Assembly: GCF_006345805.1 (NCBI RefSeq) | Contig: NC_043006.1 | Coordinates: 48,422,001 to 48,486,000 of the forward strand | Direction: 5' to 3' | Length of the DNA stretch: 64,000 bases | Source of the DNA: Octopus sinensis | Taxonomy: Eukaryota | In this document: positions 14,581 to 54,322 of the stretch, one piece after another | Layout of the letters: the number at the start of each line of letters is the position of its first letter | Position numbering within the stretch: the first letter of the stretch is position 1 | Notes under the pieces: model-generated | The model's database searches: none | What the model was told of the DNA's origin: nothing | Seen by the model: the letters and a program-made list of their open reading frames with translations, nothing else | Position numbers and translations under genes: made by a program

Positions 14581-14635
14581 TCTTTAATACATCGACTGAA
14601 GTAGTCAACTGGATATTTGTCCTCATTTTGTTGCT

Positions 14636-14681
14636 AACACAACGTTTCGGCTGATATACCCTCCAGCCTTCATCAGGTGTC
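14636..14681 (-). ncRNA. Minimal type-I hammerhead ribozyme
   Basis: gacac-CTGATGA-A-GGCTG-gagggtatat-CAGCC-GAAA-CG-TT-gtgtt: intact core, 5-bp stems I and II, palindromic ACGT stem III. Confidence 0.75.
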
Positions 14682-14745
14682 TTGGGGAAATTTCGAACCT
14701 GGGTTCTGATTCCTAAAGTATTTTTCAATGTTGTTGTTGTTGTTG

Positions 14746-14777
<32 letters not shown>

Positions 14778-14964
14778 GAGTGAGCGAGCAGATCATGCCA
14801 TCAAAGTGACACTGGGATAAAATATACGAAGCCCAGTATACCCATCATGACTACCCGTCTGATAAGGGTACACCAGGCACATGCATCACAACCATATGTG
14901 CGCGACATGGTGATCTCATATCAAGATAAACAGCACATGACCTTGCAGGTGGAGCCCAGTTAGA

Positions 14965-14968
<4 letters not shown>
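14778..14968 (-). mobile_element. 5'-truncated copy of the 10729-11175 repeat, inserted in the (AAT)n linker of family H
   Basis: AAAGTGACACTGGG..GATAAGGGTACACCAGGCACATGCATCACAACC..CCCAGTTAGAATTT is shared. Confidence 0.75.
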
Positions 14969-15015
<47 letters not shown>

Positions 15016-15287
15016 TATTATTCAGGTCACAGCCTGGAATCGAACTCGGAATCTTGGGGTTAGTAGCCCGTACTCTTAACCACTATGCCATATACCCGTG
15101 GGCATATGGCGTAGTGGGTAAATAATGTACATAAATCCTTATCTCTTAAATATAAAACTGTATTATCAACAAGGTATTTTTGTATCTATTTATGTATGTA
15201 CGCATGTATGTATGTTTATGTTAACATCTGCTGTGTAGCTGATTTTCACAACTATACACAGTTTCTCTTCTCTATCCCGAGATAGGG

Positions 15288-27814: not shown

Positions 27815-27995
27815 TCTTTCTATATTTAAGAGATGAGGAATTATGTACATTACTTACATTATTTACATTTGACGGATATTTGTCCTTATCTTGTTTGTTG
27901 TTAACACAACGTTTCGGCTGATATACCCTCCAAACTTCATCAGGTGTCTTGGGGAAATTTCGAACCTGGATTCTCATTCCTAAGGCATTTTTCGA

Positions 27996-28034
<39 letters not shown>

Positions 28035-28036
28035 CA
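27815..28036 (-). mobile_element. Family H SINE (head missing), hammerhead at 27903-27948
   Basis: AACACAACGTTTCGGCTGATATACCCTCCAAACTTCATCAGGTGTC; stem II is partly mutated. Confidence 0.8.
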
Positions 28037-28037
28037 T

Positions 28038-33520: not shown

Positions 33521-33671
33521 TGAGTTTGGTATAAATAACTGTTGCCTCTCCATAAAATTTCTGACCTTCTACCTGTCTTAGAAATTACAGGGCTGTCAGA
33601 TAAGTCCCTTCGTTTTTTGTTTGATTTTTTTCTTTTCACTTATTTTAATTCTTTCCAACTTTATTTGAATT

Positions 33672-33856
33672 CAGTTCTATATTTAAAAGACGAGGAATTA
33701 TGTACATTATTTACATTTCACGTATATTTGCCCTCACTTTGTTTGTTGTTAAACACAACGTTTCGGCTGATATACTCTCCAGCTTTCATCAGGTATCTTG
33801 GGGAAATTTCGAACCTGGCTTCTCACCCCTAAGGTATTTTTCGATGTTGTTATGAA

Positions 33857-33907
<51 letters not shown>

Positions 33908-34014
33908 CATTATTATTATTATTCAGGTCACTGCCTGGAATCGAACACGGGGTTAGTAGCCCACGCTCTTAACCACTATGCCATATGCCAGCGGTCAGAT
34001 GGCGTAGTGGTTAA

Positions 34015-34057
<43 letters not shown>

Positions 34058-34212
34058 AATATCGAAAAATACCTTAAGACTGAGAACCTAGGATCGAAAT
34101 TTCCCCAAGGCACCTGATGAAGACTGGAGGGTATATCAGCCGAAACGTTGTGTTAACAGCAAACAAGATAAGGACAATTATCCGTCAAATGTAAATAATG
34201 TAAATAATGTTA
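33672..34212. mobile_element. Family H SINE head-to-head inverted pair, hammerheads at 33752-33797 (-) and 34109-34154 (+)
   Basis: Left arm is a complete minus-strand copy including the tRNA head (33922-33989). Right arm is a plus-strand copy with a shortened head, ggcac-CTGATGA-AGACTG..CAGCC-GAAA-CG-TT-gtgtt. Confidence 0.85.
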
Positions 34213-35637
34213 ATTTGAATTAACACAAAAATATTTTGATTGTAGTGTCTTATGGGCTTCTTGGTGCTCTATTTTCATTCCACAACTTTTGTTTATCATT
34301 TCTGACAGTTGAATATATTTTACTTCTTTTCAGACATGACGATAGAGTGCCAGATAAATTTTTTTAAAACAAAAAAAAAGAAAAAGAAAATGCGAACAAA
34401 TTTATCTGACAAACTAATAGTATTTAATTACGTTTATTTATGTCCGAATATTATTCGACTTTGGTCAGATTCATTCTACAAGGATTTTTTGAAATAAATA
34501 CCTATAATATCAAAAGATACTGTTCTCGTTGCTTACAGTGATGTAACCGTGTGATATTCTGCTAATATGAGGAGTTATTATTTCCAAGTCGCCAAGAAAG
34601 TTACACAAGTGATTACTAACGTAACAAGCGCCAAAATAAGTAAAACCCAATTAGCGTTTTGAACTCAGAATCAATCAATCCAAACTGGAGGCTTTGCCAC
34701 AGCCAGATGATTCTTCAGTACCAAATATGTATATATGGAGCTGATAAACATCAAGAAAATTTGGTTCTTCACCTGGCCGCCATCTTTATACTTCGTCCTA
34801 GAGTAAAGAGAAACATATGTTAGTTTGTAATGAGAACTTTCTAGAAGTTACCAAATGAGTCAGAGAGACGTATTGAAGACGAATAAAAACTATTATAGAT
34901 TTTTTTTTCTTTCTACGAACTTCTAACTCTGTTCTCAATGCTAATGAAAATCATGTGTATCAACCGAGGCAAGAAGATTTTTTTGTGATTTGACTGTTGG
35001 CTATACTTTTTAAAAATTCATGTAGTCCAGTTGAATGAGTACTAAAGATGTAATTTAAACGTCAGCGGTTCGTATGAGTTAGGTAGCTTACACAAGACAA
35101 ATAAGGATTTGCAATTAAGAGTTACCTATGTGTGATTTATAGTATCCGTCAGGGGAGGTCTTTTAAATAATCCAGATGAGTTAACCAAGAATTTCGAAAT
35201 GTAACTTGGTTAGTAAAATTTTAGGTACGCCTTACGTAAGCTTAGCTAGCAGAGTCGATAGTTGAGTGCACAAGATGAGGCGTTGGAGGTTTTGCATCCA
35301 ATAGTGTGTATAACCAAGATACTCAATTCTCAATTGTCGAATCCACGAAGTTAAATTTTTTTTTTAACACAAGGTGGGACAGTACATCACTGAAAGCCTG
35401 CAATGGTTGCACTGCTAATTCGGTGTGCTTCATCGTTTTGTAATACCAAGTTCAAATCTTCCTTCAGCAAAAGCTACCTACTGTTCGCCACCAACCTATC
35501 AGAGAGGATATTCTTTTTCCATTCAATTAAAGTAAAGACAATCAGAGATAAGGGCCAATCTCGCAAAATACGGACGTGTTAGAAGAGTTTTCAGTATATA
35601 ACTAGCTAAATGATTAGCTATAGACGGTGATTTCAAA

Positions 35638-37568: not shown

Positions 37569-37633
37569 GGTCCGGGTTGATTCGGGGTTAACCACAGTAA
37601 ATAAGGTACTCAATACATAGTAGAGTAAAATTA

Positions 37634-37764
37634 ATTTATTATATAGAAGGAGCTTCTACAGGACTAGAACTGTTTCATTCAAGAGAAATCTTCAGGAAGT
37701 TCCTGAAGATTTCTCTTGAATGAAACAGTTCTAGTCCTGTAGAAGCTCCTTCTATATAATAAAT
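37634..37764. repeat. Perfect 65-bp-arm palindrome (1-nt spacer) with a hammerhead-like core; probable inverted PLE terminus
   Basis: ATTTATT..CTTCAGGAA-G-TTCCTGAAG..AATAAAT. The right arm has CTGAAGA-t-TTC-tctt-GAA-t-GAAA. Embedded in (TA)n. Confidence 0.85.
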
Positions 37765-39959: not shown

Positions 39960-40216
39960 CATTTGACTGCAGCCATGCTGGAGCACCGCCTTTAGTCGAG
40001 CAAATCAACCCCAGGGCTTATTCTTTGTAAGCCTAGTACTTATTCCATCGGTCTCTTTTGCCGAACCGCTAAGTTACAGGGACGTAAACATCAGCATCGG
40101 TTGTCAAGCGATGTTGGGGTATATCAGCCGAGACGTTATGTTAACAACAAACAAGATGAGGACAAATGTAAATAACGTAAATAATGTACATAATTCCTCA
40201 TCTCTTAAATATAGAA
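39960..40216. mobile_element. SINE family A 3' half (-) fused to a family H tail (+, 40117-40216)
   Basis: The junction GATGTTGGGG|TATATCAGCCGAGACGTTATGTTAAC lies inside the hammerhead stem II loop. Confidence 0.8.
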
Positions 40217-51899: not shown

Positions 51900-53714
51900 G
51901 CAGTCACCATCACCACCACCACCACGACAACTACGACATAACCACTACCACCACCACTGCCTACACCTCCATCAACATCACCACCGCCAACGCCACAACC
52001 GCTACGATTACCGTCACCACCACCGAATCACTACAACCACCATCATACCAGCACCACCAAACCCAACACCATCACCGTCACTACTAACCCTATTACTGCC
52101 ACCACTCTCACTACCACCACCGCAGCCACCAGCACCGACGCCACCACAACGCCGCACCTTAACGCTACCTCCACCGCTACAGCCACCATCGTCCGCACCA
52201 CACCTTTTCATCACCACCACCACCGCTGCCACCTCATACCACCACCACCACCACCACCACCGCCACCAACGCGGTCACTACCAACACCGCACCACAACAC
52301 TATCTCCACTGCTGCAACCACTATCATCCCCACAAGCCACGCCACTACGATCAACGCCACCAATACCACTTCCACCGCCACCCGCATCATTACCATCTCC
52401 CGCAACTCCCCTCGCCATTCTCCCACCACCTCCACCACCACCACAAACACCGATATTCTCACCCACACCCCCACCACCACAAACATCGCCGTTCTCACCC
52501 CCTCCCCACCCCATCACAACTACCACCACTGCTTCAACCACCGCCAACCACCACCAACACCAACACCAACACTGCAACCACTACCACCACCAGTACCGCC
52601 ACTACCACCTCCTCCTCCCCCTCCCCTCCACAACCACCAACACCAACACTGCAACCACTACCACCACCAGTACCGCCACTACCACCTCCACCTCCACCTC
52701 CACCACCACCACCTCCACCATTACGATTCCTGCCAGTTTCCTTTCTTATTCCCTTTCAAACGCAACCAATGTCAACAGCTTACTTATTTCCACTTGGTCA
52801 TTATCCTTATTACTATTCTTGGAAGCATCTTCTTGTTCTTGTTGCTGTTCTCTCCACTGTTGCAGCTTCTGCTACTGCTGCTACTACTGCTGCTGCTGCT
52901 GCTGTTGTTGTTGTTGTTGTTGCTGTTGCTGCTGCTGCTGCTGTTTTTCCTCATCGTCGTTGCATTGTATTTATTGACTTGTAGATGAAATTTTGACATA
53001 ATCCAGGTGGCACTCCCGTCATTCAATAAACATTACAGGTGGTAGTGGTGGTGGTGGTGGGGTGGTGGTGGTGGTGGTGTGGTGGTGGTGGTGGTGGTGG
53101 TGGTGGTGGTGTTGGTGGGTGTTGGTGGTTGTTTGGTGTTGGTGGTGGTATGTGGTGGCGGTGGTGGTGGTGGCGGCGGTGGTGGTGGTGGTGGTGGTGG
53201 GTGGTGGGTGGTGTGTGTGGGTGGGGGGTGGTGTGGTGTTGGTGGTGGTGGTGGTGTTGGTGGTGGTATGTGGTGGCGGTGGTGGTGGTGGCGGCAGTGG
53301 TGGTGGTGGCGGCGGCGGCGCGGCGGAGGTGGCGGTCGTGGTGGCGGCGGTCGTGGTGGTGGTGGTGGTGGTGGTGGTGGTGGTGGTGGCGATGGTTGCA
53401 GTGGCGTTATTAGTGATATATGATGAGGAGAAAGATCACGGGGATTATGATGATGCGGAGGAGGAGGAAGATGAGACAGAAGGAAAATAAAGGAAATTAT
53501 GACAATGACGAGGAGAACAGCGGCGGCGAAGGCGATGGCGACGACGAGAAAGAAGACAGTGGCGGCGGCGGCGGTGGCGATGACTATGGCAACGATGACA
53601 ACGATGACGATGGTGGCGTCGTCGACGGCAACGGAGGTGCAACAGTGATGCCGACTCCTGCAGTGACAATGGCAATGGCAATGGTGAGGGCTACTCCAGT
53701 GGCTGCGACGACGT

Positions 53715-53771
<57 letters not shown>

Positions 53772-54322
53772 CGACGATGATGATGATAAGATGATGTTGA
53801 TGATGATGAGAAGACGACGACGATGATGAGGATGATCATGATGATGATCATGATGATGATGAATGTGATGATGATGAATGTGATGATGATGAGATGACAA
53901 CGACGATAAAGACGATGACGACAATGATGATGATGATTGATGATGATGAGTGATGATTGATGATGATGATGATGACGATGATAATGATGATGAAGACGAC
54001 GATGATGATGATGACAACGACAAAGACGACGACGATGATGTTGATGATGATGATGATGATGATGATGATGACGACGATGATGATGATAAGATGATGACGA
54101 TGATGAGAAGACGACGACGAGGATAACGACGACGATGATGATGATGAGGATGATCATGATGATGAATGTGATGATGATGAGATGACAACGACGATAAAGA
54201 CGATGACGACAATGATGAGGATGAGTGATGATTGATGATGATGATGATAACGATGATAATGATGATGAAGACGACGATGATGATGATGATGATGAGAACG
54301 ACGAAGACGACGACGATGATGT

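What the first reader, a model, noticed from the sequence alone, without database searches (positions are those of the whole stretch)
33672..34212. Family H inserts as head-to-head inverted pairs
A full minus copy and a plus copy diverge from a central junction (..CACTATGCCATATGCC-agcggtcaga-TGGCGTAGTGG..). The same geometry is at 15096-15101 (..CCATATACCC-GT-GGGCATATGG..). In both, the second arm has a deletion starting just after the A box, consistent with palindrome instability or template switching. Recurrent inversion matches PLE-type integration rather than LINE-type TPRT. It also yields hammerheads on both strands and a long dsRNA hairpin.
Basis: partly seen in the sequence, partly recalled or inferred. 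Interest (0 to 1): 0.75.

Follow-up and report, generated by a model that had tools for sequence, protein, structure and literature searches.

The report
Penelope retrotransposon ends with tRNA-like head

Summary
Observation confirmed and general, but mostly known biology. 'Family H' is the pseudo-LTR of an autonomous Penelope/Poseidon element (RT then GIY-YIG ORF, ~2.7-kb unit), not a SINE. The pair at 33672-34212 has a 9-bp TSD. In 82 loci picked without regard to geometry, 57 have an adjacent inverted partner and none is tail-to-tail; one arm alone carries the ~31-nt tail in 39 of 43 pairs; 22 of 39 pairs have TSDs of 8 nt or more. Head-to-head pairs, tail, TSD and junction palindromes are published Penelope features (PMC3846280, PMC8557442). 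The second arm is better read as a short fold-back stub (8-26 nt) from a natural hairpin, joined to a separately truncated copy, than as palindrome decay. Unusual: a tRNA-like A/B-box head where 43 of 54 arms reaching it end; a distant relative (L288) has a similar head. Pol III use is inferred, untested; the lack of T4 terminators is only weak support. The scan reached this reading before on other loci of this genome. The exact junction centre was not confirmed in read contigs.

The parts
33663..33671 (.). Target-site duplication, left copy (9 bp)
   Evidence: Identical to 34213-34221 (seen)
33672..33989 (-). Long arm: pseudo-LTR plus tail of a Penelope/Poseidon element
   Evidence: Maps to reference positions +2..+261; same segment follows the GIY-YIG ORF end in L121-L124, L129, L130, L132
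33672..33702 (-). ~31-nt Penelope 'tail', on this arm only; lies in the ORF N-terminus
   Evidence: 3' ends fall in two clusters, about +222-233 and +249-266; region matches residues 15-66 of relative P0003
33752..33797 (-). Minimal type I hammerhead motif, core intact, one mismatch in stem II
   Evidence: Core scan; stems read by eye; no Rfam hammerhead hit shown
33858..33923 (-). AAT microsatellite inside the pseudo-LTR
   Evidence: present at this place in copies shown
33924..33989 (-). tRNA-like head: A box 33973-33983, B box 33937-33946; 8-nt deletion in this copy
   Evidence: A well-kept copy (L071) aligns to host tRNA-Arg(TCT), score 61 vs 35+/-3.6, 0 of 500 shuffles; ARAGORN and Rfam do not call it a tRNA
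33974..34011 (.). 38-nt head-to-head junction; centre 33990-33999 probably a decayed form of the family's hairpin centre
   Evidence: Length equals the commonest junction among 84 matches; centre not covered by read contigs
34000..34014 (+). Short mirror stub of the head ending after the A box, joined to the AAT tract through TAA overlap
   Evidence: stub range genome-wide
34012..34212 (+). Second arm: AAT tract, ORF N-terminus, hammerhead (34109-34154), ends without tail
   Evidence: Maps to +76..+232
34213..34221 (.). Target-site duplication, right copy
14611..15098 (-). Second site, long arm, interrupted in its AAT tract by another repeat (14778-14966); 3' end lost
15080..15117 (.). Second site, canonical 38-nt junction
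   Evidence: Exact pattern match
15101..15160 (+). Second site, 18-nt stub joined directly to the tail
27818..28037 (-). Unpaired 5'-truncated copy with tail
40117..40216 (+). Unpaired 5'-truncated copy with tail, starts inside the hammerhead

Best explanation
The inverted pair is one insertion of two end pieces (pseudo-LTRs) of a protein-coding Penelope/Poseidon retrotransposon, likely made by two cDNAs primed on the two nicked target strands and joined at their far ends. Shown: parent element, single-event TSD, one-sided tail, head-to-head polarity, pile-up of 5' ends at a small natural hairpin just before a tRNA-like head. Inferred: (a) one cDNA starts at each of two neighbouring start sites in the RNA, giving one arm with and one without tail; (b) many cDNAs end at the head because the RNA starts there, likely from the head acting as a type 2 RNA polymerase III promoter; (c) a cDNA ending in the hairpin folds back and copies 8-26 nt of itself, then joins the second, shorter cDNA (or host DNA) through a few matching letters, which looks like a deletion; when both reach the hairpin a full mirror results. 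The copies are old and inactive-looking, so the hairpin RNA and two-strand hammerheads are likely by-products.
For: Parent: head-body follows the GIY-YIG ORF end in 7 of 12 RT-anchored loci (L121-L124, L129, L130, L132; a rearranged eighth, L128), and L132 runs head-body-tail-ORF-RT-GIY-head; 587 exact matches to the ORF-side motif; RT Pfam PF00078 40.4 bits; 44% identity to an 836-aa Anolis protein; C-terminus aligns with relatives' CxC/GIY-YIG-type region. Single event: TSD of 8 nt or more in 22 of 39 pairs vs 0.7% of 726 mismatched flank pairs. Tail: one arm only in 39 of 43 classifiable pairs, 21.5 expected, p=1.4e-8; tail on anchor arm 18, on partner 21. In vitro the anole Poseidon nicks and extends both strands and starts at two adjacent RNA sites that bound the tail; a dimer is predicted (PMC11167929). 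5' ends: 43 of 54 arms that reach the head end within -20..+6; per-nt rate 0.031 vs 0.0073 downstream and 0.0042 upstream; 441 palindromic vs 324 ORF-linked exact matches. Stubs: of 29 unique loci 2 are full mirrors and 27 have a short match (13 jump to a downstream part of the repeat, 10 run into unrelated DNA, 3 are more complex, 1 is really ORF-linked; sorted by eye); long arm has the parent's hairpin orientation 14:3, 12 ambiguous, p=0.006. Head: tRNA alignment and A..B motif chance 2 of 5000 shuffles; similar head, AAT and hammerhead after the stop codon in L288.
Against: No transcript start, polymerase or cDNA intermediate was observed. A strong RT stop at the hairpin would give the same pile-up without Pol III. 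Arms of a pair are no more alike than arms of different pairs (9.1% vs 9.4% different; 6 shared variants, permutation p=0.19; 20 pairs), so a common template is not shown. By hand count of the 100 matches listed, 22 arms reaching +25 have the non-parent orientation against 45 parent, 32 ambiguous, 1 other, so the fold-back bias is about 2:1, not absolute. The strict A..B motif has 0 hits in my mapping reference and a relaxed one hits 12 of 30 ORF-linked copies. PMC3846280 explains junction palindromes by self-priming on an antisense RNA, which I cannot exclude. The centre of this very junction has 4 of 10 mismatches, more than the ~5% background, and lacks read cover.
Confidence: 0.72

Rival explanations
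1. Full mirror insertions form first; one arm is later shortened by palindrome instability.
For: Full mirrors exist (L013, L017, L019; 2 of 29); small microhomology deletions also occur inside long arms; PMC3846280 reports microhomology deletions in Penelope copies; some long arms have the non-parent orientation.
Against: Breaks cluster 8-26 nt from the centre rather than along the 250-nt arm, the centre is kept, and the surviving arm is biased to the parent orientation 14:3. No sign of arm homogenisation.
Confidence: 0.12
2. Same Penelope insertion, but the head is a passive captured tRNA/SINE piece; transcription is by Pol II and cDNAs simply stall or self-prime at the hairpin.
For: Palindromes of 18 and 38 bp at pseudo-LTR 5' ends and Pol II motifs are reported in rotifer Penelope (PMC3846280). 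324 exact matches read through the hairpin into the ORF. Zero T4 runs is not significant against order-1 or order-2 Markov nulls (P=0.10, 0.24); L297, with no head motif, has 0.61 T4 per kb.
Against: 5' ends sit a few nt before an A box at tRNA spacing; the family has the lowest T4 rate seen (0.38 per kb over 89 kb vs 0.61-14.4 in 21 relatives); a second, distant lineage (L288) has a tRNA-like head at the same place.
Confidence: 0.35
3. Family H is a separate non-autonomous tRNA-SINE or retrozyme mobilised by a Penelope partner, or a master palindrome copied whole.
For: Short head-started copies outnumber ORF-linked ones (43 vs 11 of 82); fixed 38-nt junction.
Against: Head, AAT tract and hammerhead are contiguous with the ORF on both sides; inverted junctions also occur deep in the ORF (L128, L134-L136); stub lengths and join points differ from locus to locus. 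Some secondary spread from short copies is not excluded.
Confidence: 0.05
4. Long-read assembly artefact (fold-back chimera).
For: No read contig covers the centre.
Against: Arms differ by about 13%, are asymmetric, and are bounded by a TSD; short-read contigs of other copies show head-to-hammerhead inverted joins.
Confidence: 0.02

Closest known systems
EN+ Penelope elements of Adineta vaga, e.g. Pen2a_Av, Pen3a_Av (PMC3846280; passages and Discussion section read)
   Same: Inverted pseudo-LTR at the 5' end, head-to-head, 8-10-bp TSD, 31-bp tail on one side, pseudo-LTR covering the first residues of the ORF, palindrome at the junction, microhomology joins.
   Different: There the pseudo-LTR has TATA/Inr-like motifs and copies are few; here it starts with a tRNA-like A/B-box head followed by an AAT tract, and copies number over a thousand by exact motif counts.
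Poseidon of Anolis carolinensis, PAc (PMC11167929; parts 1-2 of 4 read)
   Same: RT then GIY-YIG order, hammerhead overlapping the ORF start, tail between two 3' end clusters, AT-rich targets; an 836-aa Anolis protein is 44% identical in the RT (that it is PAc itself is my inference).
   Different: No tRNA-like head mentioned in the parts read; PAc is active, whereas the longest stop-free frame fetched here is 551 of about 840 aa.
General PLE insertion structure (PMC8557442; passages read)
   Same: Partial tandems, inverted 5'-truncated copy, 30-40-bp tail at one end.
   Different: Naiad/Chlamys have an N-terminal endonuclease and lack canonical hammerheads.
TRIMp3: Cassandra, Helenus, Ajax (PMC10886601; passages read); Schistosoma hammerhead SINEs (PMC6765202; passages read)
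   Same: Small-RNA-derived Pol III promoter inside a terminal repeat, or Pol III promoter plus hammerhead.
   Different: These are non-autonomous; PMC10886601 argues that autonomous partners must use Pol II. Here the head sits in the repeat of a coding element.

Membership tests
EN+ Penelope-like element, Penelope/Poseidon type | Single ORF with PLE-type RT | tested here: met
   PF00078 40.4 bits; 874 relatives, most listed with the same domain set; 44% to Anolis P0086
EN+ Penelope-like element, Penelope/Poseidon type | C-terminal GIY-YIG endonuclease | tested here: met
   L061 and L085 frames align with the C-terminus of P0086, P0003, P0012, P0028; Pfam gave no GIY-YIG hit on the decayed pieces; some relatives carry PF01541
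EN+ Penelope-like element, Penelope/Poseidon type | Pseudo-LTR spanning ORF end to ORF start in partial tandem | tested here: met
   L132; blastx match of the hammerhead/tail region to residues 15-66 of P0003
EN+ Penelope-like element, Penelope/Poseidon type | Inverted 5'-truncated copy, one-sided 30-40-bp tail, short TSD | tested here: met
   57 of 82; 39 of 43; 22 of 39
EN+ Penelope-like element, Penelope/Poseidon type | Minimal type I hammerhead in the pseudo-LTR | tested here: met
   Core and stems present; 1208 exact 37-nt matches; no Rfam hit; cleavage untested
EN+ Penelope-like element, Penelope/Poseidon type | Clade placement against named reference elements | tested here: inconclusive
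   Quick tree only, mostly unnamed rows, midpoint root; no CxC-linker Neptune/Nematis references included
tRNA-derived SINE | tRNA-related head with A and B boxes | tested here: met
   not called by ARAGORN at default or Rfam; host tRNA set had 27 genes of 9 types only, so the parent tRNA is not settled
tRNA-derived SINE | Non-autonomous, separate from its coding partner | tested here: not met
   Head is embedded between ORF stop and ORF start
tRNA-derived SINE | Transcription by RNA polymerase III | not testable with these tools
   Only assembled contigs of runs were available; indirect signs
Non-LTR retrozyme | Non-coding head-to-tail hammerhead repeats | tested here: not met
   Same-strand repeats in 4 of 82 loci; element has a coding parent
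LINE-type insertion | Single 3' end with poly(A) or simple-repeat tail; APE/REL endonuclease | tested here: not met
   Two outward 3' ends at two fixed internal sites; GIY-YIG-type C-terminus

The most novel reading that the evidence does not exclude
A protein-coding Penelope retrotransposon is transcribed end to end by RNA polymerase III from a tRNA-derived promoter in its pseudo-LTR (no shared T4 terminator in 2.6 kb of sense strand), so one RNA serves as mRNA and as template for SINE-like copies of its own tip; the same solution occurs in at least one distant Penelope lineage (L288).
Probability: 0.22. Interest if true: 0.85.

Novelty: new variant of a known kind. Interest (0 to 1): 0.47.

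Why it matters
The inverted geometry itself is ordinary for Penelope elements. Two things add value. First, this family gives a large natural sample for the unsolved Penelope insertion mechanism: one tail per pair, TSDs and short fold-back stubs fit two cDNAs primed on both strands, which can be tested with the existing anole in vitro system. Second, a tRNA-type promoter inside the terminal repeat of an autonomous element would blur the line between SINEs and coding retroelements and, if Pol III makes the whole RNA, would ask how an uncapped RNA is translated. Practically, repeat libraries could misfile these short copies as SINEs.

Tried and rejected
Rfam on the window (150 of 170 rows shown, nearly all microsatellite-driven miRNA hits), on 5 loci, on one 301-nt copy and on 6 relatives: no tRNA or hammerhead match shown. 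ARAGORN: 0 genes in the window; 0 in 28 relatives at ps90; calls only at strongly relaxed scores. Single-strand folds of hammerheads and heads: z between -1.24 and +0.55, no support for stable structure. Whole-pair fold -268 kcal/mol, z -28: expected of any inverted repeat, not evidence of function. Read laying: contigs only; centre skipped as repeat or uncovered; no test of start site, strand, editing or this junction. Arm-sharing test: no signal. T4 test: 0 runs in the 2626-nt majority string, expected 4.5/2.4/1.5 under Markov order 0/1/2 (P 0.015, 0.10, 0.24); synonymous shuffles of three natural frames P 0.17-0.51: weaker than earlier notes implied. A control Penelope family in this genome was sought with P0086, but hits looked like the same family. 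Relatives as controls: 21 of 28 loci used, duplicates and short matches dropped; tRNA-alignment scan on 12 of them gave 0 of 60 shuffles for L288 but also for L297, which lacks the motif. Viral contigs: no relatives. Sequence look-up of earlier findings: nothing. Literature: searches listed no paper whose title or abstract start describes a tRNA-headed Penelope; the retrozyme preprint 10.64898/2026.07.22.740005 has 0 occurrences of tRNA or Pol III (term search only); PMC13282606 passages do not describe it. Repbase/Dfam, subscription papers and all supplements (e.g. consensus files of PMC8557442, PMC13282606) were not seen and could already hold this family.

Full report
Observation. The window shows a minus arm at 33672-33989 and a plus arm at 34000-34212, 87% alike over 198 nt, each with an AAT tract and a hammerhead core. 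The second site at 15080-15117 has the same polarity. The pair is bounded by a 9-bp direct repeat at 33663-33671 and 34213-34221, so it is one insertion. The junction 33974-34011 is 38 nt long, like most of the 84 exact junction matches in G000 (0 control matches); its centre matches the usual centre at 6 of 10 letters, compared by eye.

How common. A B-box motif has 1831 exact matches. I took 84 loci from the first 100 listed places, all on contig C1, and dropped 2 overlapping duplicates. Of 82, 57 have an inverted partner within 60 nt; within 700 nt 60 are head-to-head, none tail-to-tail, 4 same-strand. A hammerhead-anchored sample gave 13 of 30 head-to-head and 0 of 30 tail-to-tail. L175 and L176 share flanks and may be one duplicated insertion.

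What the family is. Some copies continue upstream of the head in a shared sequence with 587 exact motif matches. It is the end of an ORF. RT-anchored loci run RT, C-terminal domain, head, body in one direction, and L132 holds a whole unit of about 2.7 kb from head to head. The RT scores 40.4 bits on PF00078, is 44% identical to an 836-aa Anolis protein and 62% to P0003; the C-terminus aligns with the GIY-YIG-type region of these relatives, though Pfam did not call it. The hammerhead and tail region encodes the N-terminus (match to P0003 residues 15-66). So 'family H' is the pseudo-LTR of a Penelope/Poseidon element. Copies differ about 5% from the majority at non-CpG sites, and the longest stop-free frame seen is 551 aa.

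Known hallmarks. PMC8557442 (passages) describes an inverted 5'-truncated copy and a 30-40-bp tail at one end. PMC3846280 (passages and Discussion) describes head-to-head inverted pseudo-LTRs with 8-10-bp TSDs, a 31-bp tail, junction palindromes and microhomology joins. Here 3' ends fall in two clusters; exactly one arm has the tail in 39 of 43 classifiable pairs (14 of the 57 pairs had an interrupted arm), p=1.4e-8, on either arm about equally. TSDs of 8 nt or more occur in 22 of 39 pairs against 0.7% of 726 mismatched flank pairs. PMC11167929 (parts 1-2 of 4) shows that anole Poseidon nicks and extends both strands and starts at two adjacent RNA sites that bound the tail, with a predicted dimer. 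I infer two cDNAs, one per site and strand, joined at their far ends.

The 'deletion after the A box'. The parent has a small natural hairpin just before the head. Of 54 arms that reach the head region, 43 end within -20..+6; the per-nt ending rate is 0.031 there, 0.0073 downstream and 0.0042 upstream. Exact palindromic junctions number 441 and ORF-linked forms 324. In 29 unique palindromic loci only 2 are full mirrors; in the rest the mirror part is about 8-26 nt and then jumps to a later part of the repeat (13), runs into unrelated DNA (10), is complex (3) or is really ORF-linked (1), sorted by eye. Jumps usually share a few letters on both sides (by eye). The long arm has the parent's hairpin orientation 14:3 with 12 ambiguous (p=0.006); by hand over the 100 listed matches the ratio is 45:22. 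This fits fold-back from the hairpin and joining at insertion better than later decay, which would not favour one orientation; that hairpin-driven loss tends to remove the centre is my own recalled knowledge. Against: paired arms share no more variants than unpaired ones (p=0.19, 20 pairs), and self-priming on antisense RNA (PMC3846280) is not excluded.

The tRNA-like head. A well-kept head (L071) aligns to a host tRNA-Arg(TCT) with score 61 against 35+/-3.6 in 500 shuffles, over a set of 27 host tRNAs of 9 types; an A..B motif arises in 2 of 5000 shuffled units. ARAGORN and Rfam do not call it; a relaxed motif hits 12 of 30 ORF-linked copies. Earlier notes of this scan reached the same reading on other loci and pointed to a lack of T4 runs. 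I tested this: 0 T4 runs and 29 A4 runs in the 2626-nt majority string, 34 T4 in 89 kb of copies; P(0) is 0.015, 0.10 and 0.24 under Markov orders 0-2, and synonymous shuffles show no depletion. Relatives range from 0.61 to 14.4 per kb, the family has 0.38. This is suggestive only. Beyond what those notes showed me: L288, a perfect tandem dimer from a metagenome contig (39% identity, outside the family's clade in a quick tree), has after its stop codon an A-box/B-box-like segment, a short AAT run and a hammerhead in the same order, with 2 T4 runs per unit, both shortly after the hammerhead, which would rather give a short Pol III RNA. It is the only one of 21 relatives with the motif, 5 of which had under 260 nt downstream, and its tRNA score is weak (48 vs 42+/-2.7; L297 scores 47 without the motif).

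Hammerheads and dsRNA. Both arms keep the core. A read-through RNA would fold into a long hairpin, which would bury its one sense hammerhead in duplex; PMC6765202 (passages) says Penelope hammerheads have a very short stem III and need tandem copies. Function at this locus is therefore unlikely, by inference. Runs were contigs only; they cover flanks and arms but not the centre, and cannot show starts or editing.

Verdict. The Penelope identity is near certain; the two-cDNA, fold-back-and-join model is likely; a Pol III role for the head is about even; Pol III transcription of the whole coding RNA is possible but weakly supported. Eight literature searches listed no report of a tRNA-headed Penelope, but repeat databases and supplements were not seen. 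New variant of a known kind; interest 0.47.

Noticed in passing
window 37632-37760: Near-perfect palindrome (79 nt, 37660-37738) inside TA microsatellite, each arm with an outward hammerhead-like core; unrelated in sequence to this family; looks like another Penelope-type head-to-head end pair.
   Followed up: no
L288 1-5741: Two identical 2791-bp tandem units of a Penelope element with an open 790-aa match, tRNA-like segment, short AAT run and hammerhead between ORFs; looks young.
   Followed up: partly
L316, L317: Penelope-type RT in two contigs filed under bacterial MAGs; probably eukaryotic contamination.
   Followed up: no
window 14778-14966; L035, L043, L058: Other repeats are inserted in the AAT tract of this family, which seems to be an insertion hotspot.
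   Followed up: no
L050, L051, L055, L157, L189: Recurrent junction without the hairpin, joining position +17 of one arm to about +36 of the other through a short shared word.
   Followed up: partly
L175 and L176: Identical left and right flanks about 10 kb apart: local duplication or assembly duplicate.
   Followed up: no
window 52001-54000: G+C of 54% against about 37% elsewhere in the window.
   Followed up: no
L007, L015, L019, L021: Complex junctions with repeated or back-and-forth head pieces, suggesting several template switches in one insertion.
   Followed up: no
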